Source of the DNA: Gordius albopunctatus
Taxonomy: Eukaryota
Direction of reading: 5' to 3'
NCBI GenBank assembly: GCA_964276515.1
Contig: OZ193909.1
Coordinates: 17,236,001-17,300,000 of the forward strand
Length of the DNA stretch: 64,000 nt
The translations under genes were made by a program, and so were the position numbers. The notes under the pieces were generated by a model. The model did no database searches, was not told where the DNA came from, and was given only the letters and a program-made list of their open reading frames with translations. Position 1 is the stretch's first letter. Each line of letters begins with the position of its first letter. This document shows, piece by piece, positions 1 to 50,250 of the stretch.

Positions 1-1609
1 ATAAAATAAATGATACATACAAAAGAATATCTAGTAGAAGTACAATCAATTATATCTATTTTTATATAAATATTTCCTTTAAAAATTTAACTCTTGACAA
101 TTTTGAATAATCTTAAATATTCTCTTTTAAAAATTGAATTTTTTTCCTTTCTCTTGCAAACTTTGTTTTGGCCATAAAAATCATTTTTTTCCATGCGCAA
201 TAATGAACAAAGCCTAAAATTAATATTATTATTAATCATTTATACAAATTTTGCCTCTAGTCTAATTTCAACCATCATTTACAATTTTTTGATTTGTTTT
301 GGCTATATTTTTATATTAATTTTACTTATCTTCACCCGAAATAGTTCTTATTTATCAATGTTTGACATACAACAATGTGAAAAGTAATTGTAGAGATATT
401 ATTCGAATTAAAATTTAAAAGCAGACGATTTACTCACGTGATTAAATGAGCGCGATTGGGTGATTGCAGATAGTGCAAACCAATTCTGAAAAATATTAAC
501 ATTCGTGATTTTAGCCAAATAAGAGCCTTAATAGCGAAGTCAAAAAAAAAGTTTATGATAGAATATATAAAAATATACCAAATAGCACTTTTACTTTAAA
601 ATTTTCAAAAATTGCAGATAGAGAACTCAATTCTCAGGTAGCGATTTGTTGATACCATTGAATTTTGAAAATAAAGCAAAAAAGTGTAGCCAACTTTGCA
701 CCTTCTAGTTTTGCTTTTTCACAAACTGCTTAACCAGCTTGAACGGCGACCGCTTAGTAGTGACCATCGCAGTCACTAGTTTTATACTGACAAACTTTCT
801 GGTCACCATTGACTTGTGGATACCGATGCCTTCATTAGCGTATTTCTTTAAAAAAAATGAAAGCCCTTTACCTGGACTATTTCAATAACAAACTAACAAT
901 AGTTACATTAAAACTTAAGGCCAAATTTATTTTTCATCGAATTTTAACCTATGGAAAACCTTAAGGTGAGATTCTAAAATCGTAACCCTTAGATTCACTC
1001 ATTTTTAAGACAGATTTTATTATTTTTTTTAATTTTCCGGTAGATCTAAGATCACCTTTGTCTCCCGAAAAAGGTGTCAAGTGGTATGCCCACATCAACG
1101 ATATCTTTGAAAACTGGTGTTTTTACAGTACACAAATAGACGTATAACCAATTCCCTTAAGTAATAAAGTCCTTCAATTACAGAACTTAGGTTCATGGAA
1201 CAGTCCATCATATCTACACTAAAGGTACTTCGAGCTATAAAAGAAAATTAAAAATTAGCATTCGCAAATTAGCTGGGCCTCACCATTGCACATTGCTCGA
1301 ACGAAAATAGGGCGACTTGTATTGACACCTTAGACTAGATAGACTGCTCATCGAAGTGGCATTCATTTGAAAATTGTGTACCCAATACTCCGCCATTTAA
1401 ATAAGTGAAAATTTGGCAAAGACATAGGTAACTTATATGTTTTGTGTATATATTTGATTATTTATTTACATCCCTATATCATATTATATGAATTTAAACT
1501 TGCTTATTAATTAATTAAGTGCTTACAAATACCATTAAGTCTAATTGTGACATCATGATGCTAGGTGTTCAATTATTTTAAATATAATAGGAATAACTCA
1601 AATAATATT

Positions 1610-2730
1610 ATGGCTTATTGTGCAGCTTATGGATCCAACAACTCAAAACCTAAAAATAAGGAGCTTTCCTTCCACAAGTAAATTTAAAAATATATCAATC
1701 CATCATACATTTTAATATATATTTAACCTTTTTTATATATTCTCATGTTATTTTTTATATATTTCTTTGCTCATCAACTAACCAATTAGGTTTCCCCTAA
1801 AGAACAAACCACTTCTTAAGAATTGGCTTCATAATGCCAAAAGAGATTTTATTCCAGCCAAAAACTCCCTACTGTACAGTGCTCATTTTACTCCTGATTC
1901 ATTTTATGCCACCCCCAATAAATATAAGCAACTTAGAGAAGGTTCAATGCCTACAATTTTTAATTTACCAGAGCATCTTCAAAAATTATTATTAAATCAA
2001 TTATAAATTATACAATCTTAGAAACCTTCACCTACAAGGAGGACTAACAATTCTTTAGTCAATCCACTTAGAGATTTCACAAATCAATTATCCACAAAAA
2101 GAAAAGAACTCTCAAAACTGCCCTTAAACAACCTTGACAAGGACAATACTTTTCTTAGGAAAAAGGCAATGACTACTAGCGAGTTAGCTGCTGAAAATCT
2201 AAAATTGAAAAGCACTATTAAACGACTAAGAATCTCCAATAAGATGTTTAGAAATAGGATTTTAAAGCTCAAGGATCTTATATCAGAATTAAAGAAAAGC
2301 AATTTTTTCAATAGAGATGAGGACAAGATAATTTCAAATTATTTTGAAAATGACTCCCTATTACTCGTGGATACTCATATGAAGGCTAGAGGCATTAACA
2401 ATCCCAAGAATGTCCAATTTACCCAACCACTCAAACAATTAGCCCTAACATGGAACTATTATTCAGCTAGTGCATACAGGCACCTTAGGAATATTATTTG
2501 CCTCCCTTCAGAATCATCATTAAGGTAGGTGGAGCATTTGTCTCGATGTTAATCTTGGTAAATTCTTCAATAATGAGTTGTTAATATTTTTAGGGTTCAT
2601 AAAATGTTCCATTGAGAAAATCAAAGATCTAATTTTGAAATCCAAATCACCCGTATACGTAGCACTATCTATGGATTAAATGGCTATTTGAAAGAATATT
2701 CATTGGGATGGCAACCAATATCATGGGAAT
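1610..2730 (+). pseudogene. Decayed intron-containing THAP-domain P-element-type (THAP9-like) transposase
   Basis: Exon 1610-1677 (MAYCAAYGSNNSKPKNKELSFH) spliced to the exon at 1790 (FPLKNKPLLKNWL...LLYSAHF...GSMPTIF) gives a THAP domain with two Cys ligands lost (C>S, C>Y). Downstream, LALTWNYYSASAYRHLRNIICLPSESSLR and VALSMD*MAI*KNIHWDG match P-transposase motifs but carry stops. The 3' part is missing. Confidence 0.85.
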
Positions 2731-3045: not shown

Positions 3046-3490
3046 TTATAATATTAGAAATTATTAACTGAATTGCGGGTTTATGATATAATTCAGAAGA
3101 TAATAATAATCTCTTTCAGGAGTGCCTGCAATTAAAAGAATACTCTAATTAGCGCCATCTATAGGCAATTTTAATTAGAGACTAATTTGAACTATGTATA
3201 TCCTTATCTTTTTTAGTATGTGACTCGAAAATGATAACAGATATATAACGTTTTCGCTCTTATTTAGAGCTCATCAGTATGCCATAGTTAATTTTCTAGT
3301 CACATACTAAGCGAGATAGGTATATATAATGCACAAATTAGATTTAATCCATTCTTATGGTAGTTATGAAATAACCCCCATAATTATGGTAGTAATAATT
3401 ATTTTGTTTTATTATATTAGAAATAAAGGGGTTATTATTATCTACTGAATTATATCATAAACCCGCAATTTAGTTACTAATTTCTAATAT
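3046..3490. repeat. Foldback/inverted-repeat patch that received the RTE insertion; it resumes at 6581-6660
   Basis: 3050-3112 is the reverse complement of 3431-3490 and of 6614-6658. An inner inverted pair tagtatgtgactcgaaaat / attttctagtcacatacta lies at about 3213-3231 / 3291-3309. Confidence 0.7.
3240..3283 (-). ncRNA. Minimal type I hammerhead ribozyme-like motif
   Basis: The minus strand reads GGCAUA-CUGAUGA-GCUCU-AAAUA-AGAGC-GAA-AACGUU-A-UAUAUC. It has the core CUGANGA/GAAA, a perfect 5-bp stem II, a palindromic stem III, and stem I with 5 of 6 pairs. Confidence 0.6.
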
Positions 3491-6400
3491 CTTCTTCTTC
3501 TTTATCGTGTTGAAAATCCCACAGACGTGGGGTACGTTTTCAGCAGCCTCTTCCATCTGAGTCGTGTGAATGCCATGCCAATTTCCATCTGTTTGACGTC
3601 CATCTCCTTTTCGACCAGTCGTTTCCAGGTGGCACGTGGTCTGCCCCTTCCTCTTTTTCCAGGCACGTCCATCTCCAGCGTTCGGCGTGTGACATCGTCT
3701 TCGTCTCTTCGTAATACATGGCCGTACCACCGCAGTCGATTTTCTCTTAAGAAGTCCTTTGTCGCTTGTATACCTATCTTTGTCATCAAGGATTCGTTCG
3801 TCATGCGATCCAGCTTGGTGTAGCCTAAGCTCCATCGCACCATTCTCATTTCCGTGACTTGCAAGAGTTTCTCCTCCGCGGTGGTTACAGCCCATGTTTC
3901 GCTCCCGTAAAGCAAGACCGGTCGCACGATGGTTTTGTACGCCTTGCTTTTCAACCAAATTGGTATCTTTTTGTCACACATGACACCGGAGATGCTGCCC
4001 CACTTGAGCCATGCTTTCTTGATCCGAGAATGGACTTCGGCGGTGCATCCTCCCTCTTGGTGTAATAGCGAGCCAAGATATGTGAAATTATCAACCTCCG
4101 TGTACCTTGGACCATCAATTTTGAGCATTTGCGGACTACCGCCCATCGTTTGCATGTAAATCGTTTTCTTCTCGCTGACCTTTAACCCGAATTCCGAGAA
4201 AAGTTCTGACCATTTTTTCGCCTGATGAAAAACCCCTTCTCTTGTTTCATCGCATAGGACAATATCGTCGACATATAGCATAGTCCAAGGGGCTGGCTTG
4301 TGCAAGTCCTTTGTTATTGTATCCATAATTAGATTAAACAAGAATGGGCTTAACGCTGGTCCTTGATGTAGTCCGATTATTATTCGGAAGGGTTTCGTTA
4401 CTCCTACGGTAGTCCTAACAGATGTAAACGCGCCATTATACATTTCCTTGATAAGTCGAACATATCCTTCGGGTATATTTCTGGCTCTAAGGGACCACCA
4501 TATTAAGTCTATCGGAACCGTATCGTAGGCCTTTTCTAAATCGATGAATACCATGTGTAATTTCTTTCTTATGTCGCCATATTTTTCCATCGTCTGCTTC
4601 AACGCAAAGATTGGGTCCATCGTTGATTTACCGGCCACAAATCCAAACTGATTGGGCGAGAGACAAACTTCGTCATTGAGCCTTTTCACTAGCATCCTTT
4701 CTAGTAGTTTTAGTGAGTGGCAGGTCAACTTGATACCTCTAAAGTTGCCATATTCCTGCGCGTCTCCTTTGCCTTTGTATATGGGTATGATCGTACTTTC
4801 CCTCCATTGGTCAGGGATACGACTCTCATACAACATAGCGTTAAATAGGCCTGTCATTATATCGATTCCTTCTCCTTTGCACCCAAGCCAAGCTTCGATC
4901 GGTAGATCATCGGGACCTAGCGCTTTCCCTTTCCGCATCTTCGTTAGTTGCGCTCTTATTTCATAAGCCTGAAATGGTAAAACCAAGTTCGAGTTCGGTT
5001 CCACCCTCTCTAGCGGTCTTCTATCATTCTTTTTGTTCATCATATTTTGGAAATAATCTTTCCATCTTTTGATGACTTCCTTCGGTTTGCACAACGTTCG
5101 TCCCTCTTCGCTTTTAATGACTTTTAGTGTCCCGACATCTCGACTTTTTTTCTCCCCGATCTTTGCGAGTTTATACATGACTAAGTCGCCGCCCTTGGTA
5201 TCGAGCTTGTTTGCCATCTCGGTGTAAGCCTCGTTCTTCGCTAACGCGACCGCTATCTTAGCTTTGCGTTTCGCTTCACGATATGCCTCGTAGTCTTCTC
5301 CTTTCTTCGTTTTGTACCATCGTAGGTACAACGCCTTCTTTTTTCCTATAACCTCTTTGACTGAGTCATTCCACCACCATAGTTCACGCTTGTGAGCTCT
5401 GCCGCCCTTAGTTCGTCCCAATATTTGAAAGGCCGTTTCCTTTAGAACATTTGCAACGGTGCCCCACCTTTTGTTAATGTCGCCCTCCAAGCCTGCAACC
5501 TTCAAGAGCTGAGTTGCTCGAGCGTGAAACATTTCATTTGCATGATCATCCTTAAGCTTTTCGTACTTTGTCCTTGGTGTGTAGACTTTTCTCCTTACAG
5601 GAAAAATCTTTCTTGCTATATCGAGGACAACTGGCCGATGTTGTTTGGCGATTTCTTCCCCCGGTATAACCTTGCAATCTTTAACTTGCCACAAATTTTT
5701 ACGCTTCACTAATATGTAGTCGACCTGTGTAAGGTGATTTCCACTACTGTACGTCGCTAAATGTTCGGTACGCTTCTGAAAGAAGGTATTCACAATGGCC
5801 ATATCGTAAGCTTGCGCCATCTGTAGTAACTTCTCTCCCTCTTTATTTTTCACTCCATAGCCATGCCCGCCGTGATTTCGTTCGTACACGCCCCTTTCTT
5901 TCCCAACGTGCCCATTAAAGTCTGCTCCGATGATGAGATTCTCATCAGGCTTCACGTAGCGTATTTCTTCTTCAAGCTTCTCATAGAATTCGTCCTTCTC
6001 GTTTTCGGAACATCCAACCTGGGGCGAATACGCACAAATAACATTGACAAGGCCGCCTTGATCCGCCAGCTTTATGCACATCAGTCTATCTGAGCATCGT
6101 TTGACTTCGACTACCTTGTCCTTAAAGGAATCGCTGAGCACTATACCGACCCCGTTCTTCCGTGATGGGGAACCCGAGTAGTATAGCTTGTAACCATCTC
6201 CTAGCTCCCTGGCTTTTGTTCCATGCCACCGCGTTTCTTGTAGACACGCTATGTGTATCCTTCGCCTTTTTAGCATCTGCGCAACCTCGATGCTCTTCCC
6301 CGTCAGCGTGCCCACATTCCAGCTAGCCACTCTTGTCCGTTCGACAACTAGGTTTCTTAACCGCCTTCGTTGTGAGTGAGGCGGTGACCCTTGTATACTT

Positions 6401-6581
6401 TTCACATTGCACGGGCGGATGATGCAATGCGCGTCGTTTGGGGAGGACGCCCTAGCATTCTGGTATAAGTTCGTATTTGAAGCTACCATGGTGTTTGGAG
6501 TTGCTTTTTACAGCCGGCTTCCGACCTGACGCCAACCCTCCACTTTTTTCACACGGACTTGGGACCGTCGTTGGTAGTGTT
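3491..6581 (-). mobile_element. Full-length RTE-clade non-LTR retrotransposon (family A)
   Basis: Single APE+RT ORF, (GAA)n 3' tail at 3491-3500, short 5' UTR. TSD ttactaatttctaatat (3474-3490) / ttactaatttcttatat (6581-6597), one mismatch. Confidence 0.95.
3502..6489 (-). CDS. RTE ORF: AP-endonuclease plus reverse transcriptase, 995 aa
   Basis: APE motifs SWNVGTL, ACLQETRW and GADFNGHVG; RT motifs FIDLEKAYD, QGPALSP and YVDD; C-terminal RLRWYGHV and RGRGRP. Confidence 0.93.
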   Translation of the reverse strand: MVASNTNLYQNARASSPNDAHCIIRPCNVKSIQGSPPHSQRRRLRNLVVERTRVASWNVGTLTGKSIEVAQMLKRRRIHIACLQETRWHGTKARELGDGYKLYYSGSPSRKNGVGIVLSDSFKDKVVEVKRCSDRLMCIKLADQGGLVNVICAYSPQVGCSENEKDEFYEKLEEEIRYVKPDENLIIGADFNGHVGKERGVYERNHGGHGYGVKNKEGEKLLQMAQAYDMAIVNTFFQKRTEHLATYSSGNHLTQVDYILVKRKNLWQVKDCKVIPGEEIAKQHRPVVLDIARKIFPVRRKVYTPRTKYEKLKDDHANEMFHARATQLLKVAGLEGDINKRWGTVANVLKETAFQILGRTKGGRAHKRELWWWNDSVKEVIGKKKALYLRWYKTKKGEDYEAYREAKRKAKIAVALAKNEAYTEMANKLDTKGGDLVMYKLAKIGEKKSRDVGTLKVIKSEEGRTLCKPKEVIKRWKDYFQNMMNKKNDRRPLERVEPNSNLVLPFQAYEIRAQLTKMRKGKALGPDDLPIEAWLGCKGEGIDIMTGLFNAMLYESRIPDQWRESTIIPIYKGKGDAQEYGNFRGIKLTCHSLKLLERMLVKRLNDEVCLSPNQFGFVAGKSTMDPIFALKQTMEKYGDIRKKLHMVFIDLEKAYDTVPIDLIWWSLRARNIPEGYVRLIKEMYNGAFTSVRTTVGVTKPFRIIIGLHQGPALSPFLFNLIMDTITKDLHKPAPWTMLYVDDIVLCDETREGVFHQAKKWSELFSEFGLKVSEKKTIYMQTMGGSPQMLKIDGPRYTEVDNFTYLGSLLHQEGGCTAEVHSRIKKAWLKWGSISGVMCDKKIPIWLKSKAYKTIVRPVLLYGSETWAVTTAEEKLLQVTEMRMVRWSLGYTKLDRMTNESLMTKIGIQATKDFLRENRLRWYGHVLRRDEDDVTRRTLEMDVPGKRGRGRPRATWKRLVEKEMDVKQMEIGMAFTRLRWKRLLKTYPTSVGFSTR

Positions 6582-6587
6582 TACTAA
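6531..6587 (-). ncRNA. Twister ribozyme (P1-type) at the RTE 5' end
   Basis: The minus strand reads UUAG-UAAA-CACU-AC-CAACG-ACGG-UCCCAA-GU-CCGU-GUGAAAAA-AGUG-GAGGG-UUGG. P2 is CACU/AGUG, P4 is ACGG/CCGU, and the pseudoknots are AC/GU and CCC/GGG. Confidence 0.85.
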
Positions 6588-6754
6588 TTTCTTATATAAT
6601 AAAACAAAATAAGTTATTATTATCTTCTGAATTATATCATAAACCCGCAATTTAGTTACACTTTTTGCTAAATTCCAATCATATATTTTCAAACATAGCA
6701 AATGCGAAACTACGGAATATTTGTATGCATTTAGTTAGTAACACATCTAAAAAT

Positions 6755-10019: not shown

Positions 10020-13000
10020 AATACTCGTGAATTAATTGAATAAATCAATTAAGTTTAGTGGTACCTCCGCGAGGTATAAATAAATCAATTACATTTAGTG
10101 GTGAATCCGCGAGGTATGCTTGATTGGTCAATTAACGTCGCGAAGTAGTAAGGTAATGTAAATGAGTCAATTTAGCTTCAAATCAATTAAGACAATGGAC
10201 GCAACAAATATTCCGCTGGGTAAAAACGGAGTTCATATAAAATTAACAAACTTTTTGGGGCAATGAACTTGGATTGGGAAGTGGTACGCTAGGTTTTGTG
10301 GAAGGTTTTGTTGAAGGAACAATGGTGGGTTGGTTTGAATTTTGAGTCGGTGAGTGATCGTTTGGTTTGGTGAATTTGGGTCAACTGATGAATTCTGGTT
10401 ATCAACTTTAGGCTCGAGGAAAGCTGGCTTTAATCGATAAATCGAGACAGTGTCTTTCCTACCATTGTGGTCTATGATAAAAAATTTAGTATGTTTTTCA
10501 ATCACTTTGAAAGGTCCTTCATAAAGGGGAATCAAGGCTTTGCGTAGCCGATCAGTCCTAATAAAAACATGGGTTGATGTAAATAAATTTTCGGACATTT
10601 GTTGTTTGATGTTCGATGGTCTGGAAGGTGTAAATCGTACATCATCGAACTTCTGTCTATGGCGTTGAATGTAATCGGCGGCGTTTATGTCGCGATCCGA
10701 AGGTTGTAAAAAATCGCCTGGGAGTCGTTAAGAAGTACCGTATACCAACTCCGCGCTTGAACATGCGAGGTCTTCCTTAACGGTGTTGCGAATCCCTAGG
10801 AGTACAAGAGGAATAAGTTCAGACCAACGGGTAACGTCACCTTTTGTCATGATTGAACTTTTGAGCTGTCGGTGAAATCGTTCTACCATCCCATTGGCTT
10901 GTGGATGGTAAGCTGTCGTAGTGATATGATGATACCCTAATAAAATAGATAATTGTTTAAAAAGGGCAGATTGGAATTGCGGTCCCCGGTTCGTGGTTAA
11001 GGTCGCCGGAACACCAAAGTTGGCTATCCAGTGTGTCAAAAATTTGCGTGCAACGGTTTCGTCTGTTGCGTCAATAATGGGAATTGCAATCGGCCATCGG
11101 GTGAAACGATCAACGGCAGTAAAAATATAAATGTGGCCGTAAAAAGGTGGTAAGGATCCGACGAGATCTACATGTACGTGGCTAAACCTTGCGTCTGGTT
11201 CAGCGAACGTGTCTGGGGTTGATATTACGTGTCTATTTACCTTGCATTTTTGACATTCAATGCATTGCTTTGTTCAATCGCGTACATCTTTGTTCATTCC
11301 CGGCCAGACGAAACGTTGGGTAATTAGTTTAAGTGTTGGGCGTAAGGCTGGGTGAGAAAGACCATGTAGTTGATTAAAAACTATGCGTCGGAGCCTACTA
11401 GGTACTAAAGGTCTCGAAGTCGATGTAGATGTATCGCACGTAATAGTTAAATTTGTACCTGGAATTACGCGTTGTTCCAGTTTAAGACATTCGAGCTCTT
11501 CTAGTTGATATTGCTCTTGTTTTTGTGTCATAGCAATTCTTTCTGTGATGCATGTGTTCGGTTGTTGGATAAAGTTTGGTTGCTGTATGGAATCGATAGA
11601 GATTCGGGACAAAGTATCTGCTACTATATTCGCTTTACCTTTAATAAACTGTATATCTGAAGTGAATTGGGAGATATAGTCTAATTGTCGTATTTCGCGC
11701 GGTGAGTATTTATCGGATTTAGAAGTGAGAGCATAAGTTAACGTAAAAACTGTAAAATAGCGACCTTCTAAAATATGTCGGTACTGTTTAATTGAAAGAT
11801 AAATTGCTAGCAGTTCTCTCCCGAATGTACTGTATCGAGTTTGTGTTTTGCTCAATTTCAGGGAGAAAAAGGATAAAAGACTAATTTCCCCTTTTACGAT
11901 CTGATGTAGAATGGCTCCAATGGCAGAGTTTGACGCTTCGGTTGTAATAGAGATGTTGGCACCATCCACTAAATGATTAAGTGTCGAGATTTCATCGAGC
12001 ATTATTTTAATCTTGTGGAATGCGTCGTGTACGGTCTGCGTCATGTCCAAAGATCCTTTTGCGTCGTTGAGGAGATCAGTCAGTGGTTATAGATGGAGTG
12101 CACAGTTGGGTATCAAACGCATGTAAAAATTTACTATTCCCACGAAACGACGTAGTTGTGTCATAGTAGTCGGGGTGGCAAAATTCTTGATGGCTGAGAT
12201 CTTCTCCGGTATTGGCTTTAAACCTAGTGGGGAAACTTGATGTCCTAGGAAATCCAGAGAAGAACGTCCCGATTGGCACTTGTCCAGGTTGATCTTTATA
12301 TCAAAATCTCTTAATCGTGTAAAAACTTGACGTAAGTGGTCTAAATGTTCACTAGTTGATGTACTTGCGATCAAAATATCGTCCAAATATGCAAAGGCGA
12401 AATTGAGACCACGGAGAGCTTGGTCAATGAAGCGTTGGAATGTTTGAGCAGCATTTCGTAAACTAAAAGGCATTCGCAAAAATTCATAAAGACCGAAAGT
12501 TGTGGTTATTGCAGTCTTTGCGATGTCCTCCAAGGCTACGGGTATTTGATGGTAAGCTCTGAATAGATCTATTTTTGTATAGATGGTTGTGCCAGCTAGG
12601 TTGAGTGAGAAATCGTGCAGGCGTGGCAAGGGGTAATGATCCGGTATCGTTATAACGTTAAGGGCTCGGTAATCTCCACACTGTCGCCAATCTCCGGGAG
12701 TTTTTTTCGGAACCATGTGCAATGGAGAACTCCAGGAGCTTTCTGAAGGTTGAATTATGTTGAGTTCGAGCATGTGAGTAAACTCCTGTCTGGCAATTTT
12801 TGGCTTGACAGGGTCTAAGCGTCTAGGTCTGGCATAAACTGGTGGTCCTAGTGTACGTATGTGGTGGACTACTTGGTGGCTTACGCGTGACCTGTAATTT
12901 GGAGGGGCATAAATCTCGGGGAACTCTTTCAAAACATTTTTAAAATACGGTGAATCGATCTTTATTACGAGTTGTCAATTGTACAAGTTCGAATCAATAT

Positions 13001-24215: not shown

Positions 24216-24718
24216 AAAATGATAAAAAAAGGGGCGGGGGTCAAATTACCTACCCCCATTCCCCCCCCTCCCCGGGTAAGAAAGAGTGTAAAAAATAGGG
24301 GGGGGGCAAAACACCCTCCTGACCCCCCCCCCTTCCCCCGCATCAAAAAGAGGGTAAAAAATAAGGGGCGGGGGCAAAACACCCACCATGCCCCCCCTTT
24401 CCTCCCCATCAAAAAGAGTGTAAAAAATAGGGGGGGGGGGGCAAAACACCCTCCTGACCCCCCCCCCCCTTTCCCCGCATCAGAAAGAGGGTAAAAAATA
24501 AGGGGGGGGGGCAAAACACCCTCCTGACCCCCCCCCCCCTTCCCCCGCATCAAAAAGAGGGTAAAAAATAAGGGGCGGGGGCAAAACACCCACCATGCCC
24601 CCCCTTTCCTCCCCATCAAAAAGAGTGTAAAAAATAGGGGGGGGGGGGCAAAACACCCACCATGCCTCCCCTTCCCCCGCATCAGAAAGAGGGTAAAAAA
24701 TAAGGGGGGGGGGCAAAT
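24216..24718. repeat. G-run/C-run minisatellite, about 60-bp units with a higher-order repeat
   Basis: About 8 units of aaaaatagggggggggcaaaacaccc...ccccttccccgcatcaaaaagag. A related reverse fragment lies at about 53875-53970. Confidence 0.9.
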
Positions 24719-25068: not shown

Positions 25069-27124
25069 ATGAATAAGGAGATCGTTGTTGTCCCTGGCAA
25101 AAATTGGAATGAAAAGTGTCAAAACGCATTGAAAGATGAGCTTTTGATAGATGTCCATTTTTTGGTATGTTTTGATTATATTAATTTTTTTATCTTTTAT
25201 AGTTTGAAGAAGATGGCAAAGCTGTAACTCACAAGGCTCACAAGTTTTTATTAGCAATGAGTAGTCCCGTATTTCACGCAATGTTTTATGGGCTTACATC
25301 TGTTTCTAAACCCGCGGAAGAGATTACTGTTGTGTCAATTGAAGATATTTCTTCCCAAATTTTTGCTATCTTATTGGAGTAAATTAAATATTATAATAAT
25401 TAATTTTATCACCATAATTTCGTGATTCTTTATTTATTGTGCCAATTTAGTTTTATATACCACCAGGATAAATTAGTGAACATGAACATTGGTAATTTGG
25501 AAGGCTTAGAACGTGCCCAATTTTTAAACGACCTTTTATATGCTGCAAAGAAATATATGTTAGATGACATTAGAAGAGTAATTGGGAATAAAATAGATTC
25601 CGAAATAGTGTTAATAAACGCTTATTATCTTTTGCGTCAAGGAAAATTATTTCACGATGAAATTAGTTGCAGTACATGCTGGAAGGTATAAAAAATTATA
25701 ACACAAATACTTTGATCTAACTATTTTCTATAATTAATTAAATCAATAATGATTAAAAACTTGTAGGGGAAACCGAGGATAGAAGAGCCATATAAAATTA
25801 AAAATATATTTTTTTTAATTTTCCGCTAGAATATATTTTCACGATGTATTTTTAATCTAGGCAAAATATTATAAAACTTTTTATATATTTCTTCCATAAA
25901 TTGGGTTAAAAAGTCAAAATCCCCAGGTAATTCATATTCTTATTTAAGGGATAGAATGACCTTAATGTTTCCACTTTATTTTTATAAATGATTATTTTAC
26001 TATAAAAAGATAAAAATAATATAGGTTATATTTTACGGATTACAACTAAATATAACATGACATGGGGGTAGCCAAGGGGGGCAGGGATGGGGGGCTGCCC
26101 CCCTCTAAATCTAAAAAAATGTTGAAATTTATTAAAATTATAGGTCCAAATTTGAAAAAATGTTCATTTTGCCCCTCCCTAAATGATTATTGCCCACTCT
26201 AATTCCAAAGCTGGCTATGCCCATGTAACATGAGTTAAGATGACAACCTGATTTGTGTGAAAAATTTATTACTTGTAGGTATTGTGGGAAAATGGTGAAA
26301 AATATATTAAAACTGATTCATTCTTGAATATGACGGCAGAAGATTTATTGAGTTTTCTGATCGCCGATGACTTGATTGCACAAGATATTGATTTATTTCA
26401 AGCCGTACTAAAATGGGCTAATTATAACATTAAAAAAGGAGACGAAATCATCACGCCCAACCATATCAGAACATTCTTAGGCGAGGATATTATCAAAGCT
26501 ATTAGGTATCCGCTCATTAGTGTAAACGACTTTAAAGATATAATCGTTAAATCTGGCATACTTAATCAAGAAGAAATAATAGAAGTCCTTTTTTCTTATT
26601 TTGGAAAAAGTGAATCGAATAAATTAAGCAAATTTATTACCAAGTCTCGAAAGCGAAACGTGGAATCATCTATTTTTGTTACTGTAACTTACAATCAGGG
26701 AAGGTTATATTCATATTCCCCACAAGATTACTTTTCGATTCAAAGTCATGCATTGGTGAGTATAAAAATTCATGGCATCTACATACTAACTCCTTGGACC
26801 TCATCATCAGACTATCATTCAAATTATGGTTCTAGAACTAATTATGTGATTGAGTTATATGATCAAAAGGAAGATCTTTTAACTTCCGCCATTTTACAAC
26901 ATGGTTCTTATAATAACAGCGAATCCTATGTTAGAGTGAATTTTATAAATCCTGTACTCATTGAATTTAATGGGCAAACGAAGTGGTTCAAAGTGCAAAC
27001 TAGTTCGCCAATAACATCTCTCTATACAATTGAATCTTGTCATAGCATACAATTTGGATCGGCAGTTTTTAGTCTAAATGTCGCTAGGCCTAATAAATAC
27101 TTATGCGGAATAATTTTGGAATAA
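25069..27124 (+). CDS. BTB/POZ-BACK domain protein (BTBD1/2/3/6-like N-terminus)
   Basis: Exons 25069-25164, 25203-25378, 25451-25685 and 26279-27124 are in phase. Motifs DVHFL, AHKFLLAMSSPVFHAMFYG, LLYAAKKYML, DLFQAVLKWA, IRYPLIS. Confidence 0.9.
26061..26225. mobile_element. hAT-type MITE in BTB gene intron 3
   Basis: TIR catgggggtagcc / ggctatgcccatg; perfect TSD taacatga. Confidence 0.85.
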
Positions 27125-29091: not shown

Positions 29092-31971
29092 CTCTTCTTC
29101 TTCGGTATCAGTTATTTGGTCCCACATTGGTGGGGTTTGTTTTGATGAGTCTCTTCCATTAACTTTATCGACTTGCCCTTTCCACGTGACACGGGGTCGT
29201 CCTCTTCCTCTCTTCCCCGGTATTTTCATGTCTAGCACTTTTCGATTTACGTCATCCGGGTCCCTTCTTAGTATATGCCCATACCACCTTAGCCGATTTT
29301 CGTTAATCATGTCCGCCATAGGTTGAATACCCATTTTTGTCATGAGAAAGTCATTCGTCATATGGTCGAGCTTAGTATACCCCAAGCTCCACCGTATCAT
29401 TCTCATCTCCGTGGCTTGTAATAGCTTTCCTTCCCTGGTGTTTAATGCCCATGTTTGACTTCCATAGAGTAACACCGGTCTTACGATGGATTTGTAAGCT
29501 TTGCTCTTCAACCATATTGGCATTTTCCTGTCGCACATTACACCGGATATACTTCGCCATTTAAGCCATCCTTTTTGGATCCGGGCATTGACTTCTGTTG
29601 TGCAACCTCCCTCTTGATGTAACATCGAGCCGAGGTATGTGAACCTGTCTACTTTTGGGTACTTTAGATGGTCATCCAGCGATGGGGTGCCTGTACCATT
29701 CATTTCCATTTATACCGTTTTTCGATCGTTGACCTTTAAACCATATCCAGCTAAGCGCTTTGACCACTTTTCTGCTTCTTCGAATACCTTCTCCCTTGTT
29801 TCCTCTCATAGTACTATATCATCGGCATATAGCATACACCATGGCGATGGCTTTTGAAAGTCCCTCGTTATCGTGTCTATAATTATATTAAATAAAAAAG
29901 GACTTAAAGCAGAGCCTTGATGTAATCCAATATTAACCCGAAAAGGTTTAGAGTCTCCAACTGTCGTCCTAACGCAGAGTTTGAGGCTTCATAGATATTT
30001 TTCATAAGCCGTATATATGCGTCAGGGATATTTTGTTTCCTCAGGCACCACCATATTAAATCGCGGGGGACCGTGTCCTAAGCTTTCTCCAAGTCGATAA
30101 AAACCATATGTAGGTCTTTCCTCTTTTCACCATACTTTTCCATCATTTGTCTTAGGGCGAAGATTGGGTCGATTGTGGATTTGCCGGCCACGAATCCGAA
30201 TTGATTAGCCGATATTTCCACCTCGTTTTTCAGCCTTGTTACTAAGATCCTTTCCAAAAGCTTCAAGGAGTGGCAAGTTAGCTTGATACCTCTGTAATTG
30301 CCGCAGTCCTGAGGGTCTCCTTTCCCTTTGAATAAGGGTATAATCGTGCTTGCTCTCCATTGATTAGGGATTCGCTCTTTTACCAATATCTTGTTAAGGA
30401 AGTTCGTCATGGTGGTGACTCCTTCTTCACGACATCCGAGCAATAATGCTTCCATAGGTATTCCATCTGGGCCATTTACTTTTCCTTTTTGCATCTTGTT
30501 CATTTGTGTCCTAACTTCATCCTCCTGAAAGAGTTCGACCATACTTATATTTGGTTCAATTTCGGGAAGGGAATCCTTGTCATTTGCAATATTCATAAGT
30601 TTCTTAAAATATCCTTCCCACCTTTCCATCACTTCCTTCGGCTTGAATAAGGTTTGACCCTTCTCGCTTTTGACTATTTTAAGAACTCCGACATCTCGAC
30701 TTTTCTTCTCCCTTATCTTGGCCAATTTGTACATAAGCCTATCGCCCCCTTTATGATCCAGTTTGTTTGCCATCTCGGTGTACGCAGCATTCTTCGCTTT
30801 TGCAACGGCCTTTTTTGCGGCCCTCTTTTCGTGCCTGTACTCTTGATAATCCTCCGACTTTTTTGATTTATGCCACCGTCTATATAGATTTTTCTTTATT
30901 TCGATGAAATCTTTAACCGATTGATCCCACCACCATAGTTCCGTACCCTATTCATAGCTTTGCCTCCTTTGGTCTGTCCTAGAACACGAATCGCTGTTTC
31001 CTTAATGTCCTTAGATAGCGTTTCCCAATCTTCGTCTACGTCCCTTTGCAACTTCCTTGCACCCAAGAGTGAGGAGGCTTTTTGATGGTATTATTCGTTC
31101 GTCGACGTATTCTTTAGCCTTTCGTATCGAATTCGAGGTTCATATACCTTTCTTCTTTCGGGAAATACTCTTCTGTCAAGATCCATAACAAGGGGACGAT
31201 GTTGCCTGGCGATTTCTTCTCCCGGTATTACTTTGCAATCTTTGATACTCCATAAGACCTTTCGCCGTATAAGCAAATAGTCGATTTGACTAAAATGCTT
31301 CCCACTTCTATAGGTCACAATATGATCTTCGCGCTTTTGAAAATAGGTGTTAACGATCGCCATGTCATATGCTTGGGATACTTGGAGAAGTTTTTCCCCT
31401 TCTTTGTTCTTCAGACCATGCCCATAGCCACAATGATTGCGTTCATACCCGAGGCGATCTTTCCCTACGTGAGCGTTGAAATCGGCCCCAATAATTAGCC
31501 TTTCTTCCTGTCGGATTCCTTGTATTTCCTTTTCCAATGATTCGAAGAATATGTCTTTCTCTGATTCCGAACACCCAATTTGGGGAGCATACGCGCACAT
31601 AACGGTTAGGAGGCCCCCTTGATCCACAATCTTCACCCACATTACCCTGTCGTAACAACGTTTGACTTCCACTGAACGATTCGCTTAGAACGATACCGAC
31701 CCCGTTTCTACGATTTGGTGACCCACTGTAGAAAAGCTTGTATCCTTCTCCTAATTCCCGAGCTTTCGTTCCGTTCCACCTCGTCTCTTGTAGGCAGGCG
31801 ATGTGTACCTTTCTTCTTTTTAACATCTGTGCGACCTCGATGCTCTTCCCCGTCAACGTTCCCACATTCCAGCACGTAATTCGCATTCTTTCCACAACTA
31901 GTTTCCTTAACCGCCTTCGTTGTGAGTTGGGCAGTAACCCTAGTGTATTTTTCACATTGCACGGGCGGGGT
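29092..31971 (-). mobile_element. RTE LINE (family B), frameshifted; its 5' end runs into the gap
   Basis: APE/RT ORF pieces at 31443-31955, 31091-31672, 30078-30773 and 29020-29709; (GAA)n tail at about 29092-29103. Confidence 0.93.
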
Positions 31972-32171: not shown

Positions 32172-34194
32172 TTTAAATTATATAAGAAATTAAATATTGA
32201 GATTAGTAGTTGCGTTTGTGTTAGTTCCTTCCATACATCGTTTACATATCCTCTGTACACTGTACTGTTGATTAATAATGAGTTTTTATGTGGGTTGAGG
32301 CCAAAGAATAGCAAAATATTTTAATTACTAACGTTAAATACGGAAAAAAGGTCTTGGCGACCTTTTTTTTTTTTTGCTCTCACTTAGTCTCGGCGATTTT
32401 TTTTGCTTGCCCCCCCCCCCCTGATCCGAAAGCTGGCTACGCCCATGAATGTTCTGTTAATATTATTTAAGTAAACAAACCACATATAAATAGATGTTAG
32501 ATTTTATAAATCACTTTATCCTTTGCATTTTCGCATTGAGATTTGTTTTTCAAATTCAAATGAGCATAGAGGTGGACTAAGATTGGTGTAGTTATGTTTA
32601 GTCGACTTAAACCAAAAGGCGACTTAACGAAACATAGGTCTCTTTACAACACTATTGTCAAATATTTTTCTTTTAACTTTGAATTTTTTTCTTCCCCCTC
32701 CAAAGAAATTAATAAATTTTAAAACAAAAACATTAACATTTATACTTTTTTCCAATAATCTTAAATGCTTATTTTAATATTTTATTTTTTCAAACTAATA
32801 TAAGTAAATAACATTTAAAATTAAGATATATACATACCATAGATAATTTTTGTATTATATTTTTGGTCAAAGGAAATATGATTGCAAGTTTATTTTGTCA
32901 TTGAAGTAATAAGCATTTGAGTTAAGTTCAAACCAAAGAAATATCCTCTAATCAAAAAAAATATTTTCTTTCCTTGGAATACTTAATGAGATCATCTATA
33001 AATTATTTAAAAAGACATGATGAATATTTTATACTATGATATGATTAATTATATTCGTGTGGCATTAGGCCAATGTTTAGGAATTTTTATTACCGTGGCA
33101 ATGATTTGCCCTTTTTGATTTGTAAAATTAAAATTACCCTTGGATTAATTATTTGGATTTTATGATCTCGTTTGGTTGTTCAAGGCCATGCGTTTATTAA
33201 TAGATGGTAGAATCACGATGATTGTTAATTTCGCTATTTGTTAATTTATGGTTAGCTTCGCTGTTTATTACTATTGATGCGTCATCTTTGTTTACACCTA
33301 ATCTGATTACCTCATCCATGATCTCCATAACTGTGTATTTATCATTATTGTTACTACTTCACGGTTTATTATTATTATTTGTGCGGTATCGTTATTTACG
33401 TCTAAGCTGATTACCTCATCATCATTATTATTTTTACTTTAAAAAAAGGATTGTTAGTGTAAATCTTCTTTATTTAGGACAGATAAATTGTCATATCGGA
33501 AAGCCCTCATTCATTAATTGGGATATAGGACATTTCATTCTTTACAATATAAAAATATGTAGTATTCAAATCTAACATGTTTTATCTTAAAAAAGTATTA
33601 AATTATAAGATCGGATAAATATGTGCGTTTATTTCTTTGGTCGAAATATGGGAATAAATAATAAGATAAATATAATAAACGTCATGATGGTAAACTTTTA
33701 CAGGCCATAAAGTGTAAAATGGTGTAAAAAAATATTATTTTATTACATTTGCCCTATTCTATACTATTAAGAAGATCGTTCAAGTGTTTTATGTATATAT
33801 TTGGAATGATGACTTCACTCTTCCTCTGATATTTATGGATTAGGGCTGCTTTGTTTTTTGTGGATCAAGTAAAGATGAGTATATAATAAGAAAAGGGACC
33901 GAAAATGATAAACGTGATTTTAATGAATTTTAACAAATTTTTGGATTTAGAGGGGGGGGGCAGCCGCCCCTCCCTGCCGTCCCCTGCCTTCGCTACGCCC
34001 ATGCGGTCTGTCATTATTAGGGACATGACTATCTTTGGGACTTTTATTGATCCAAACCGTGTTTTTTAAGGCTACAGTGATTTAAAACAGATATTAGATT
34101 AAAATAATGCATCCACTTAATTAAAGTTAATCAATTTGTACTCTGCTCTAATTAAAATCGAACTGGATTCTTTAATTATCCCCACCCTCCCTAT

Positions 34195-34332
34195 CATGGG
34201 CGTGGCGAAGGGGTGGCAGAAAGGAGCGGCTGCCCCCCCCCCCTCTAAATCCTAAAATGCTTTAAATATTAATAAAATTAGGGTTAATTTTGCCCATGCC
34301 CCTCTCTAAATATAATCCTGGCTACGCCCATG
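34195..34332. mobile_element. hAT-type MITE
   Basis: TIR catgggcgtggc / gctacgcccatg; TSD ctccctat / cttcctat. Confidence 0.8.
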
Positions 34333-45500: not shown

Positions 45501-48500
45501 GATATAATCGTTTATGTTAAAAGTTTTTAATGAAATTTTGCATTATTTCATTTTTACTCGTTAGCATCGATACCAAAGTAATAGAGCAGCTACCAGCCAA
45601 TTCTAATCTATTTAATACCATTGAGGCATTTTCGGTAATTGAATTGTGAAAGAAATATATATGAATCCCTGAAAAAGAATTATAATTTAATATATTATTT
45701 TTTGATGGGAAATGACGTTAGGACATTTACACGAATAGATTGTCCAGTTAATATTCCCTTGTGGCTAATTATTTTTTAATCATAAAGTCCCAGGAAAAGA
45801 TCTTCGTATTTTTAGCGCAGTTTATCCATGGTAACCATGATTTACCTATCGATCCTACAACACCAAGAGTTCATTTCTCGTTTCCAATATAAAATTACAA
45901 CAAAAAACTAATGATTATAACAAATGACTTAAATATAGACGATACATGGGCGTGGCCAAGGGGGGGGGGGGTCAGGGAGGGTCGGCTGCCCCCCCTCTAA
46001 ATCCGAAAAAATTGTTGAAATTTATTAAAATTATGGCTAAATGTTCAAAAAAGGATCATTTTGCCCCCTCTAATCCCAATGCTGGCTACCCCGATGCTTA
46101 TTTACTTAATGTTATGGTAATATATGTAATAAGCATGTATGGGTAATATAAGCTTGGAAAAATACTATTTCATACTATTTTTGAAATAGGAAACTTTATA
46201 TATTGAGGAGGTAAAAATACATATTCTGTGAAAATGAATGAAGTAAATAAAAAAACTAGGTGTTATAAATATTTGGAAAGTTGCTAAAAATTATGTATAT
46301 AACAAAATTACTTTGATGCTGAGCATTTAGGGAATTTGTTGTTTAAAACATCTTATCTTTTATCAGGTCAGGCAATATCAAATTTCATCTCAAGTTAGCA
46401 ATGATATTAGATTTTTCTATTAGACTCAATGTTTGAATCAAGTAAGTGCTCATGAGAAATTAAATTGAAAATACTCTATGACCTAAAATTTTGCCCCCGT
46501 CTTTTCCTGTATAGCCAAAAGTTTATAGCTTTTATCATAATCGACACAAATAAGTTTTATGCCGAAGCATTATAGCTGTAATTTTGAACTTGCAATAGGC
46601 AGAGTTATGAGAATCAAAAAAAGTAAAGAACTTTGAACCAAATTTCTTAACCTTTTAAACGCTCAACCATTCATGACACTTTGAATAGTAATAACGGCTT
46701 AAAGAATATTTCTTTTCTTGTACAGCATTTAATATAAAGTAAACTTAGATATTTTATAATCATATAAAACTTCCGAATTCAAGCATATGAATGGCAAGCT
46801 TAATCATTTATCTTCAATTTTTTGGGGTGAGAATATAAATAAGTCCAACCTTTTTGTGATTTAATTATGTTACTTTGAGATCTATAGAAATATTATAAAG
46901 TAATAAAAATTAACCACCGTTTTAAAAAACATGACAAACTTCTTATTACTAAACTAAACAACGCTTTCTTGAAAGTTTTTTTTAGTAATTCCTTAAAAGA
47001 GAAACGGATGACAATTTATAGATTTTTAGATGCAATATTGACTTACTACATCTTCATTGTTATGTCTCTTTTGAAAAAATATATATATTTAGGCGGATAA
47101 AAATTAATTATTTTTGCACATCAAGGCCATTCAGTTACCAGTATTCTGTACAATTTTAAAATAACTGTAGTGTAGTAATAAATTTATCTCCACCTCAAAA
47201 GTAATGCTTTAAATTGCATGTTGTGAACAACAGTAATCTTATATTGTCCATAAACCTTTTTCTCTGCCTTTTTTAATTAATTAATTTTTACACGCTAACA
47301 TAGCGATTATTACATCTCAATCTATACCTTAAATTAGTTAAATTTATGGATGTCGGGTGTTTGGTCATTTTAATTAATGAAATAATTACACGTGGTAAAT
47401 AAATTATAAAAAATATTTTTTTATATATTAATTTATCTATCTTTCCCTCCCTAATTTATATGGTTATATTTAAAGCACGTTGCGTTTTAATAATAATCCG
47501 ATGGAATTAGACTTATTAAAGATTGAGGGTGTAACTGTGGTAATAGTTAATTTTCATTAGCATTTTGATTTAGTGTGTTATGTAATGTACAACGTGAAAA
47601 GATTAATGAAATTTTGACGCATAAATCATAATTTACTATAATAGAGGTGGTCGCGTGTCTGGGTTATGGCAAAAACTTTAACTTATAAATTAAATTATGG
47701 TGTGCCAATAGATTATCAACAGTTGACAACTAATGAAAACATGTACGAAATTTTTTCCTCTCCAGATGTTTGGTGAGCTGAAATTATATAAGGTTAATAA
47801 GTTATTTATATAATCACTTAATAACATATATAGTTCGGATAATTAAAGGTGGTTCTGCAGATCTAATTTAACATTTGAAGTAATCTAGCCATTCAAAGTT
47901 GAAGCACTTAATATATATATGCTATACACTTATAATATCTAAATGATATTTGTTCATTATATTTATTTATTTGTTAAAACATTTATGAATATATTTATAG
48001 TAGAGTCTTATAAACGAATATAACCTAATGCTAAAAAGCTTGCTTGCACCGTTAATATCACATATAAGCAATAATTAAAACATTTGTACAAAAATTACAA
48101 ATATTATTAATATTACATCGCAGCGGCAATCGTTTTAACTAATAAAGAAACATAAGTCAACAACATATCTCATAAGATTTTGCCTGAGCTATATTATAAA
48201 TATGCATTTACAACGCAGATATATATGGTTCTTGGCTGTGTCGGATTTGGGTGCCTGCCTGATGGTCATATTTTGGCCTGTACTACATGTCATGGCCAAT
48301 TACTACAAATGGTCATTCCTATACACCTACGGCTGGAACGCCTTTCTCATTTATTTCGTAAACGTAATCGTCAACGTTTTCATGAAGGCTAGTACCCTGT
48401 TGACTTGTTCCTTAACCATGGACCGATACGTGGCTTTACACCTACCGTTAAGGTACCGCAAATTCAGTGTGCCCAAGATGGTAAATTCAGCTGTTTTAGT

Positions 48501-50250
48501 ATCCTTTGTTGTGCCATTATGTCTCATGATACCCCGTGTTCTACAATATCGAATAGTCCCTATGCTTCCACCACCATTGAGCGTTTCAGTTTCTGCCCCT
48601 TCGCATAGGACTACTGCCCTGGGCTCAGACATTAACTCCACCAAACTAAAGGATGCGTCAATATTTAAGTATGAGGCTTGGCGCAACATGGATCAAGCCA
48701 TAAAAAATCCCAAGTTTAGGGCTTTTTTCGGACCTCTCACGTCCCAATCGAATCGTTTAACTAGGGCGGAGCGCAACATTTCAAATCGCCCTTATCCTAA
48801 GGGTATAAAACTGCGAAAGGGTAAGAAGAAGTTGAACACACTTAAGCTCAACCTCAGAGATTCTTTTAATACCAGCAACATATATGAGCCCGTAAAAGCT
48901 TTTTATCAAAATAGAGGCTTCAATGCGTCTTACATTTACTTGAACGGTAGTACTATGAGCGATGAGGCGGCGATAGATTATGGCAAAAAGATTTCCAGCG
49001 GTGCGACTTTGACAAGCAAGGAATACCACTTCGTCCCAAACTTGGAATTTACAAGTTTACCATCTCACACGGCGTACCAGTGGATTAGGGAGATATCCCT
49101 TACTTTCGCACCCTTAGTCCTACTTATAATTCTCAATATATCAATCATTCAACGCTACAAGGTAAACATGCAAAAACGTGCTTCCATGATTAACATCAAA
49201 AAAGCTATACCTAACAAGGTTGAAGTTTCGACAGCAGCTTTAACGAGTTGTGACACTTCAAAATCTTCAGCAACGGGTACGCCTGATAATATTAAATTAG
49301 TCATGAGAAACAAAAAGTCAAAAAATTCCAAGTCTGTCTTAAAAACTGAGCCTTTTAATAATCGCCATTTTTTAACACTACCCCGAAATAAGTTTCTGAA
49401 ACTTAGAAGCTCGGACCAAAATGTCGACGCATCAACAACCATTAAGCCTTTCATTGAAAAAGACGATTGCTCCAACGAAGTTATTAATTTAAAGGTAGTG
49501 AGGGATTATAGTGGGAAAGAAAGACCGACCGCTCAAAATTCACATTGTACCACATCTTTGCTTAATGGCCAATTGACCCTAGACCAAGTCGCTGCTAGGA
49601 ACGAACAAACTCAGGAAAGTTTTCATAAAACGGCAAAGCATTTAAATGACGCCAATGGTGATACAATCTGTATCAAGCCAGTCAAAGGATGGAATGGGAT
49701 AATGCGGGCAAGGCGAAAACAAAACTCCATACCTGTACTGTTCCCCAGAAAAAAATGTTACAATGGCATTACAACCGGTGAGACGAGTAAATGTTTACTA
49801 ACTCCTGATAACGCGCCTGCCTCAGATTCGTTCCTAGGTGCCCATGACGATACGATTGCATCGACTTCGCATAAAAAGACGTCAAAATCCAACCCCCCAA
49901 TTCGCGATATGAAAGCGGAAAAAGCTAGGAAACATTTGAAAGACGAAAGAAGATTAACCATCATGTTAATAACGGTAGTTAGTTTACATTTTGTGTGTAA
50001 CATACCGCAAGCCATCGTAACGATCCTTGATACCAAGTATCATGGTACACCGACGGGGAGTAGCTTTTACTTTCAACTTGCACTGATTTCAACCAACGTT
50101 TTGGAAGCCTTAAATTTCGCCGCCAATTTCTATCTATACTGCGTTTTTATTAAAGACTTTAGGTCTCAGGTCAAAAATATTTTCTCCAAACTATTCCGTA
50201 AACCTGTTATCATCCCTATCCCTGACAGATCTAGGTCTCAGATGACTTAG
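37334..50250 (+). CDS. Class A GPCR, FMRFamide/sex-peptide-receptor-like peptide receptor family; 2 coding exons
   Basis: Exon 37334-37509 (TM1 IGIIGNALIL) joins in phase (AG|A) to exon 48219-50250. Motifs: TM2 LAVSDL, TM3 MDRYVAL, TM6 FVCNIP, TM7 NFAANFYLY, and helix 8 FR. Confidence 0.9.
38180..38696 (+). mobile_element. 5'-truncated non-LTR retrotransposon with a restriction-like endonuclease (CRE-like)
   Basis: Translates as EP...RPDG..LVPW....LKWDFT...E..K..KY..L...FIPVV....G..GKQA..FFKEIG, followed by a short 3' UTR and a poly(A) tract at about 38676-38696. Confidence 0.75.
39671..39940 (+). mobile_element. Short non-autonomous Helitron
   Basis: Starts A|TCTTATATATAAAA and ends CTAG|T after a GC-rich degenerate hairpin; no TSD. 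Confidence 0.6.
40130..40535. mobile_element. MITE with about 30-bp inverted ends
   Basis: ctaatgctcaagtaatctaa versus ttagattacttgagcatttg; a second copy lies at about 9342-9682. Confidence 0.65.
43305..44090. mobile_element. Decayed DNA transposon with GGCCC/GCCCG subterminal repeats
   Basis: Clusters of cggcccggccc and gggccgggcc at both ends; a similar decayed element lies at about 27795-28160. Confidence 0.5.
45945..46096. mobile_element. hAT-type MITE
   Basis: catgggcgtggcc ... ggctaccccgatg, with a body matching 26061-26225. Confidence 0.75.

What the first reader, a model, noticed from the sequence alone, without database searches (positions are those of the whole stretch)
6531..6597. 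Twister ribozyme fold defines the 5' end of a full-length RTE; the target-site DNA supplies the missing P1 strand
Seen: the minus strand reads UUAG-UAAA-CACU-AC-CAACG-ACGG-UCCCAA-GU-CCGU-GUGAAAAA-AGUG-GAGGG-UUGG, and the element/TSD junction (6580/6581) falls within the UAAA stretch. Established: this is colinear with the rice P1-type twister as I recall it (CCGCC-U^AA-CACU-GC-CAAUG-CCGG-UCCCAA-GC-CCGG-AUAAA-AGUG-GAGGG-GGCGG). The paired differences are compensatory: P4 CCGG/CCGG becomes ACGG/CCGU, and the pseudoknot GC/GC becomes AC/GU. Twisters at RTE 5' ends are known from Schistosoma. Inference: the element is excised from read-through transcripts by self-cleavage, so each new copy starts at the cleavage site. 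Its activity would then depend on the flank; here only a weak UUAG/UUGG P1 is possible, with one extra A in L1. Protein-based annotation would miss this.
Basis: partly seen in the sequence, partly recalled or inferred. Interest (0 to 1): 0.9.

Follow-up and report, generated by a model that had tools for sequence, protein, structure and literature searches.

The report
Twister ribozyme heading an RTE retrotransposon
A full-length jumping gene, likely from a horsehair worm, starts with an intact twister-ribozyme fold, and many of its family's copies begin at the base where that RNA is predicted to cut itself free; the same set-up is already published for a blood-fluke element, so this is a clean further example rather than a new principle.

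Summary
Observation confirmed. Minus strand 6581-6532 is a type-P1 twister fold: Rfam hit 36.3 bits, E 1e-5, below the gathering score; 13 of 13 core pairs Watson-Crick; catalytic G and A in place. It heads a 3.09-kb RTE-type LINE with an open 995-aa endonuclease/RT frame, a (GAA)n tail and a 17-bp target-site duplication. Twister hits also precede the endonuclease in 12 of 26 related loci, in plant-like and animal branches. The whole model, including P1 supplied by the target site, was published for Schistosoma Perere-3 (Liu 2021), and a 2020 review states it for RTEs generally. This scan found it before on other DNA (six notes). The flank-dependence claim is weaker than proposed: flank pairing is at chance level across ten loci, and twisters cleave without P1. 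Cleavage and expression were not tested. New member of a known kind, probably in a new host phylum.

The parts
6532..6581 (-). Element-encoded part of the type-P1 twister fold: two A's 6581-6580, P2 6579-6576 with 6544-6541, T2 6575-6574 with 6558-6557, 5-nt linker without P3 6573-6569, P4 6568-6565 with 6556-6553, T1 6563-6561 with 6538-6536, 8-nt L2 strand 6552-6545, predicted general-base G 6540, orphan P1 3' strand 6535-6532
6581..6582 (-). Predicted scissile bond (after 6582, before 6581) and 5' boundary of the element family
   Evidence: Position from the Rfam alignment and the cleavage rule in PMC8501958; loose ends behind 6581 in 57, 49 and 60 contigs of X1, X3, X4 and one each in X8, X10
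6581..6597 (.). Target-site duplication at the element's 5' end; supplies the base before the cut and the 5' strand of P1 (6586-6583 in register, 6587-6584 shifted by one)
   Evidence: P1 gives 2 wobble pairs in register, or 1 Watson-Crick plus 3 wobble pairs shifted
3474..3490 (.). Target-site duplication at the element's 3' end
   Evidence: 16 of 17 identical
6490..6531 (-). Rest of the 5' UTR: short hairpin (about 6527-6513), in-frame stop 6510-6508 inside an A-rich motif; start codon 92 nt after the predicted cut
3502..6489 (-). Single open frame, 995 aa from the ATG at 6489: APE-type endonuclease plus reverse transcriptase; two RT motif positions deviate from nearly all homologues
3491..3501 (-). 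(GAA)n tail directly after the stop codon

Best explanation
This is a full-length RTE-type non-LTR retrotransposon whose first 50 bases form a type-P1 twister ribozyme fold, which likely cuts the element's RNA out of longer host transcripts at the bond before base 6581, so that new copies would start at that base. Shown: the fold, the intact catalytic positions, the element's anatomy, and the clustering of family 5' ends at 6581. Inferred from Perere-3 and from twister biochemistry: transcription from upstream host promoters, cleavage leaving a 5'-OH-AA end, translation of the uncapped RNA from the AUG 92 nt downstream, and target-primed reverse transcription to that end. Each insertion puts random target DNA in the place of the 5' P1 strand; this likely tunes the rate but is probably not needed for cutting. 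This copy has three A's at the site (Liu's 3A class) and is predicted to cut at reduced rate; its RT carries two off-consensus residues, so it may no longer be a source copy.
For: Rfam twister-P1 hit; 13 of 13 core pairs; 1 descriptor hit against 0 in 200 shuffles. Open APE+RT frame, tail and duplication. Summed contig depth falls 16-, 34- and 94-fold from bin 6551-6581 to bin 6582-6612 in X1, X3, X4, with loose ends behind 6581 in 57, 49 and 60 contigs at consensus agreement 0.45-0.47, i.e. unrelated flanks. Within 6532-6581 only place 6549, in the unpaired L2 strand, is listed as variable. Protein-first scan: 12 of 26 loci carry a same-strand twister-P1 hit about 200-490 nt before an endonuclease match and none elsewhere in 77 kb. 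P4 and T1 pair in 95% of cells over 12 sequences, with 3 P4 pairs changed on both sides. Published precedent with cleavage data: PMC8501958.
Against: Cleavage was not tested. The Rfam score is far below the gathering threshold, and L2 is 3 nt longer than the model. Nearest-neighbour folding, which has no pseudoknots, does not favour the fold (z +0.82 and +1.17 for the two short segments) and shows a competing pairing of the linker with the P1 3' strand. One search lists only 24 loose-end rows (634 not shown) and 40 of 70 variant rows, so the share of copies that start at 6581 is unknown; X2 shows no listed end at 6581 (3 contigs at 6571), X3 has 19 at 6582, X10 has single ends at 6548, 6572 and 6576. 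X1 may be the window's own source. 14 of 26 related loci had no twister hit, and whether they are 5'-truncated was not determined; L023's hit is weak (E 0.26) and L006/L018 are one insertion.
Confidence: 0.85

Rival explanations
1. Strong flank dependence: only copies whose target site restores P1 cut well and become source elements.
For: The P1 5' strand is target DNA by geometry. Liu et al. report lower efficiency for 3A, 4A and 7A variants and propose this model. This copy can form four pairs in the shifted register, which 12.5% of window 5-mers reach in one of two registers.
Against: Flank pairing is at chance over 10 loci: 17 of 40 in register, 23 of 40 shifted, control 1.79 of 4; this does not test the model directly, since most copies need not be sources. 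P1-less twisters cleave at almost wild-type rate (PMC5408937).
Confidence: 0.3
2. The element has an internal promoter that starts transcription at 6581; the twister fold is kept mainly as a structure for translation or RT binding, and cutting is incidental.
For: No read-through transcript was seen here. Further conserved leader features lie downstream of the fold. Liu's reporters tie the cleaved ribozyme to translation.
Against: The 5' end coincides to the base with the predicted scissile bond here, within one base in L001 and in Perere-3; the catalytic G is kept in all 13 sequences parsed.
Confidence: 0.1
3. Chance resemblance or a decayed relic with no function in the family.
For: Score below the Rfam gathering threshold; no thermodynamic signal.
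Against: All core pairs intact, 0 of 200 shuffles, boundary coincidence, conservation in four coded organisms and in distant RTE branches.
Confidence: 0.03

Closest known systems
T-variant twister ribozymes at the 5' end of Perere-3 (RTE), Schistosoma mansoni; Liu et al. 2021, PMC8501958 (read: abstract, introduction, results, discussion; parts 1 and 3-7 of 9)
   Same: Twister at the 5' end of a single-ORF APE/RT element; duplication next to the AA at the cut site; target DNA forms the 5' P1 strand; the same four-base 3' P1 strand as in most rows of their Table 1; extra-A variants; AUG about 100-150 nt downstream.
   Different: No P3 (5-nt linker), different P2, P4 and T2 pairs, 8-nt L2 strand, (GAA)n tail instead of GTAA repeats; host probably a nematomorph; two short core motifs of this sequence were not found in the one supplementary file held.
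Twisters conserved at RTE 5' ends, stated as 'in preparation' in de la Pena et al. 2020, PMC7761336 (read: passages)
   Same: Truncated but catalytically competent twisters at the 5' end of RTE-superfamily elements, proposed to process the RNA from upstream transcripts and aid translation.
   Different: One sentence without data; searches listed no follow-up paper in the library held.
Rfam RF03160 twister-P1; mini-twister without P1 (PMC5408937, read: passages)
   Same: P2, P4, T1, T2, conserved loop letters; P1 dispensable.
   Different: Score 36.3 against a gathering score of 67.2; P1 half supplied by the flank; three extra L2 bases.
HDV-like ribozymes at the 5' ends of R2, L1Tc and some RTE elements (as reviewed in PMC6765202 and PMC5786205, read: passages; the primary paper PMC3308841 was not held)
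   Same: A self-cleaving RNA defines the 5' end of a non-LTR element that is co-transcribed with host RNA.
   Different: Unrelated fold.

Membership tests
Twister ribozyme, type P1 | Stems P2 and P4 | tested here: met
   4/4 and 4/4 Watson-Crick
Twister ribozyme, type P1 | Pseudoknots T1 and T2 | tested here: met
   3/3 and 2/2 Watson-Crick; one T2 pair changed on both sides against the Rfam consensus
Twister ribozyme, type P1 | Conserved loop letters, with the A after the cut and the G opening the 3' side of L1 | tested here: met
   Present at 6581-6580, 6564-6559 and 6540-6536; catalytic roles taken from PMC8501958
Twister ribozyme, type P1 | Terminal stem P1 | tested here: inconclusive
   2 wobble pairs in register, 4 pairs (1 Watson-Crick) shifted by one; P1 reported dispensable
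Twister ribozyme, type P1 | Rfam gathering score 67.2 bits | tested here: not met
   36.3 bits, E 1e-5; all 12 RTE-linked hits in related loci are also below it, 24.5-59.4 bits. Filed therefore as a twister variant (T-variant), not as an Rfam-threshold member.
Twister ribozyme, type P1 | Site-specific self-cleavage | not testable with these tools
   Needs an in vitro assay
T-variant twister of RTE elements (Liu 2021) | Conserved core, 2-7 A's at the site, duplication adjacent to the AA, APE/RT frame downstream | tested here: met
   Three A's 6582-6580; duplication from 6581/6582; ORF 92 nt downstream
RTE clade of non-LTR retrotransposons | Single ORF with APE endonuclease followed by RT, about 3 kb, no separate ORF1 | tested here: met
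   the feature list is from PMC8501958 and from recall
RTE clade of non-LTR retrotransposons | Short-repeat 3' tail and target-site duplication | tested here: met
   (GAA)n tail, 17-bp duplication
RTE clade of non-LTR retrotransposons | RT phylogeny with curated RTE references | not tested
   No curated references at hand; homologues at 39-45% identity from insects, nematodes, fish and plants carry no RTE label. The label RTE rests on architecture and recall.
Perere-3 family itself | High sequence identity to Perere-3 | not tested
   No Perere-3 sequence was compared; no Schistosoma name among the 120 of 387 hits listed. Not filed as a member.

The most novel reading that the evidence does not exclude
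Twister heads are an ancestral, cross-kingdom feature of this RTE branch (plant, fish-related, flatworm and horsehair-worm elements), and their orphan P1 strand has been selected to consist of U and G, the two bases that each pair with two partners, so that almost any insertion site rebuilds part of P1. 41 of 48 positions of that strand are U or G in 12 sequences, and it gains a mean 2.0 pairs from random window DNA against 1.67 for the Rfam consensus letters. The sequences are related, so common descent could explain it equally.
Probability: 0.3. Interest if true: 0.5.

Novelty: new member of a known kind. Interest (0 to 1): 0.27.

Why it matters
It extends the twister-RTE link, tested so far in one flatworm element, to an abundant family in a probable nematomorph and, by a protein-first sample, to plant-like and fish-like RTE branches. 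That suggests many eukaryotic twisters are retrotransposon heads. A high-copy family with hundreds of different natural flanks on one ribozyme core is a ready set for testing whether the insertion site decides which copies stay active. The principle itself is published.

Tried and rejected
No whole genome is held, so no genome-wide junction count was possible. No RNA holder listed; X10, an RNA guess, has contigs ending at 6579-6581 but contigs end at branch points anyway and it is one study; nothing was laid for X14 and X20. Single-strand folding gave no support and cannot model the pseudoknots. A pairing of the ribozyme 5' part with the start-codon region appears in one fold but the family majority differs at 6485: rejected. 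The parser mis-anchored L009 and L012 and chose P2 by optimisation; its pair counts were discarded and redone with anchors from the Rfam alignments, leaving out L018 as a duplicate, L019 for P1/P2/T2 and L008 for P1. MAFFT misaligned the 5' strands, so only P4 and T1 were counted. The two other RTE copies in the window give no second ribozyme: one ends in a run of N, one is 5'-truncated, and no duplication of 7 bp or more was found for either. The sigma-70 promoter scan is not relevant to an animal. No earlier finding resembles this sequence. No paper held twister, ribozyme and Nematomorpha together. Roth et al. 2014 and Ruminski et al. 2011 were not held. Whether the rice twister itself sits in an RTE was not tested.

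Full report
Observation. Rfam's twister-P1 model matches 6586-6532 from first to last model position with 36.3 bits, E 1e-5 in a 2-kb search and 3.2e-4 over the window, below the gathering score of 67.2. Parsed on that alignment, P2, P4, T1 and T2 give 13 of 13 Watson-Crick pairs; P3 is replaced by a 5-nt linker and the 3' strand of L2 has 8 nt instead of 5. Against the Rfam consensus the outer P4 pair and one T2 pair differ on both sides and still pair. A descriptor written from this fold hits once in the window and never in 200 shuffles. Folding without pseudoknots gives no signal. The recalled rice sequence was not checked.

The element. The fold heads a 3,091-bp, 46% G+C insert in 33% G+C DNA. 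One frame is open from 6507 to the stop at 3502; its first ATG is at 6489, 92 nt after the predicted cut, giving 995 aa with Pfam Exo_endo_phos and RVT_1. A (GAA)n tail follows the stop directly. The duplication is 17 bp with one mismatch, 6581-6597 and 3474-3490. Homologues at 39-45% identity come from insects, nematodes, fish and plants (120 of 387 listed); solved relatives are R2 and LINE-1 proteins. The label RTE rests on this architecture and on recall, not on a curated tree. This copy has P where 103 of 103 matched homologues have S in the QG motif (17 of 120 did not match the pattern) and V where 112 of 115 have A before the DD (5 did not match), so it may be an ageing copy. A neighbouring receptor gene has a single homologue, from Gordionus (36% identity, E 8e-92), so the host is likely a nematomorph; this rests on one hit.

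Where copies start. By Liu et al., cleavage leaves a 5'-AA end whatever the base before it, which puts the cut between 6582 and 6581. No genome was held, so public contigs were laid on the region. Summed depth drops 16-, 34- and 94-fold past 6581 in X1, X3 and X4, and 3.6-fold in the shallow X2; 57, 49 and 60 contigs run into unrelated A/T-rich flanks directly behind 6581 (agreement 0.45-0.47), 19 more behind 6582 in X3. X8 and X10, two further coded organisms, each have one such end, and X10 also has single ends at 6548, 6572 and 6576; X14 and X20 laid nothing. Base 6581 thus belongs to the family and matches the duplication only as a one-base overlap. Limits: 634 loose-end rows and 30 variant rows were not shown, depth is no copy number, and X1 may be the window's source. 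Inside 6532-6581 the only listed variant is at 6549 in the unpaired L2 strand, where the family majority differs from this copy. Contigs that share 6494-6581 and then diverge into another ATG-led sequence (43-62 per run in X1, X3, X4) suggest a sister family with the same head.

Related elements. Rfam found twister-P1 in 12 of the 26, always on the coding strand and about 200-490 nt before an endonuclease match, and nowhere else in 77 kb; 11 have E below 0.01, L006 and L018 are one insertion, and the other 14 loci were not checked for 5' truncation. In the endonuclease tree five twister-bearing loci sit in a 99/97 clade with Glycine and Orobanche proteins, L012 groups weakly (86/93, long branch) with fish proteins, and the window's element lies apart from both (13 of the 26 loci were long enough to include). 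L006 and L018 lie beside a snoRNA Z102/R77 match. Full-length L001 has a 7-bp duplication ending one base before its AA. Across loci P2 pairs at 38 of 44 positions, P4 at 43 of 47, T1 at 35 of 36, T2 at 17 of 22, but P1 at 17 of 40 in register and 23 of 40 shifted, against 1.79 of 4 for arbitrary flank. P4 plus T1 exceed shuffles (0 of 500 for paired cells, 1 of 500 for covariation score) and all slid controls, with the tool's caveat on relatedness.

Mechanism. Shown: fold, anatomy, boundary. Inferred: a host read-through transcript is cut before 6581; the uncapped RNA is translated from 6489; APE nicks an A/T-rich target and RT copies to the cut end; the duplicated target then forms the new 5' P1 strand. 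Here P1 has 2 wobble pairs in register or 4 pairs (1 Watson-Crick) with one extra A; 12.5% of window 5-mers reach four pairs in one of two registers. Since P1-less twisters cleave at almost wild-type rate (PMC5408937, passages) and 3A variants cleave less efficiently but at the same site, the flank most likely tunes the ribozyme and does not gate it.

What is known. Liu et al. 2021 (PMC8501958; parts 1 and 3-7 of 9 read) report twister variants before all 113 full-length Perere-3 copies, duplications adjacent to the AA, target DNA forming P1, cleavage in vitro and in yeast, and the model that the insertion site sets activity. A 2020 review says truncated, active twisters are conserved at RTE 5' ends, as work in preparation (PMC7761336, passages). 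Reviews describe HDV-like ribozymes in the same role (PMC6765202 and PMC5786205, passages). Searches listed no paper with data on twister-headed RTEs in plants or nematomorphs; subscription journals are mostly not covered, and only one supplementary file of Liu et al. was searched, for two motifs. This scan holds six earlier notes of twister-headed RTE derivatives in other genomes, which I did not check.

Verdict. Real feature, correct identification, known arrangement. What this case adds is an intact head on an open-frame element in a probably new phylum, a one-base correction of the junction, a cross-kingdom sample, and the observation that the orphan P1 strand is mostly U and G. Interest 0.27; new member of a known kind.

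Noticed in passing
window 29093-31971 (-) and 56778-59599 (+): Two broken copies of a sister RTE family, 93% alike and 67-69% like the main element; the first runs into a 200-N gap at its 5' end, the second is 5'-truncated; a small fragment lies at 53049-53234.
   Followed up: partly
window about 6455-6435 (-); columns 118-138 of alignment A3: A hairpin in the first codons of the ORF is kept in related RTE loci (77% of cells paired, 3 of 7 pairs with a change on both sides), and a 3-pair hairpin follows the ribozyme. Structure was drawn from these sequences and protein constraint could contribute. Plant-like loci repeat the unit in tandem.
   Followed up: partly
window 6494-6581: Many contigs share only this head and then diverge into another ATG-led sequence: a sister family appears to keep the same twister head.
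   Followed up: partly
window 3065-3477 and 6587-6658: The target lies in a small repeat nest: a 45-47-bp unit occurs three times, direct and inverted, and a 26-bp inverted copy covers part of the duplication.
   Followed up: partly
window about 1600-2530 (+): P-element-like transposase remnant: Pfam Tnp_P_element with a THAP-like exon pair upstream (THAP label recalled).
   Followed up: partly
window 10233-12974 (-): LTR-retrotransposon pol region (RT, RNase H, integrase) broken by in-frame stops.
   Followed up: no
window 48139-50250 (+) and 26279-27124 (+): Host genes: a rhodopsin-family receptor with very long loops whose only homologue found is from Gordionus, and a BACK-domain exon.
   Followed up: partly
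L006:659-861 and L018:2115-2317: A twister-headed plant-like RTE inserted about 40 nt downstream of a snoRNA Z102/R77 match, a plausible read-through source; the two A's at the site are altered in this copy.
   Followed up: no
L004:250-330: Near-full-length RTE-like locus with the conserved post-ribozyme motif but no Rfam ribozyme hit; may carry a divergent head.
   Followed up: no
window 24224-24717, 33946-34249, 54842-55047: A tandem-repeat block and two long inverted-repeat-like elements that draw sub-threshold Rfam hits.
   Followed up: no
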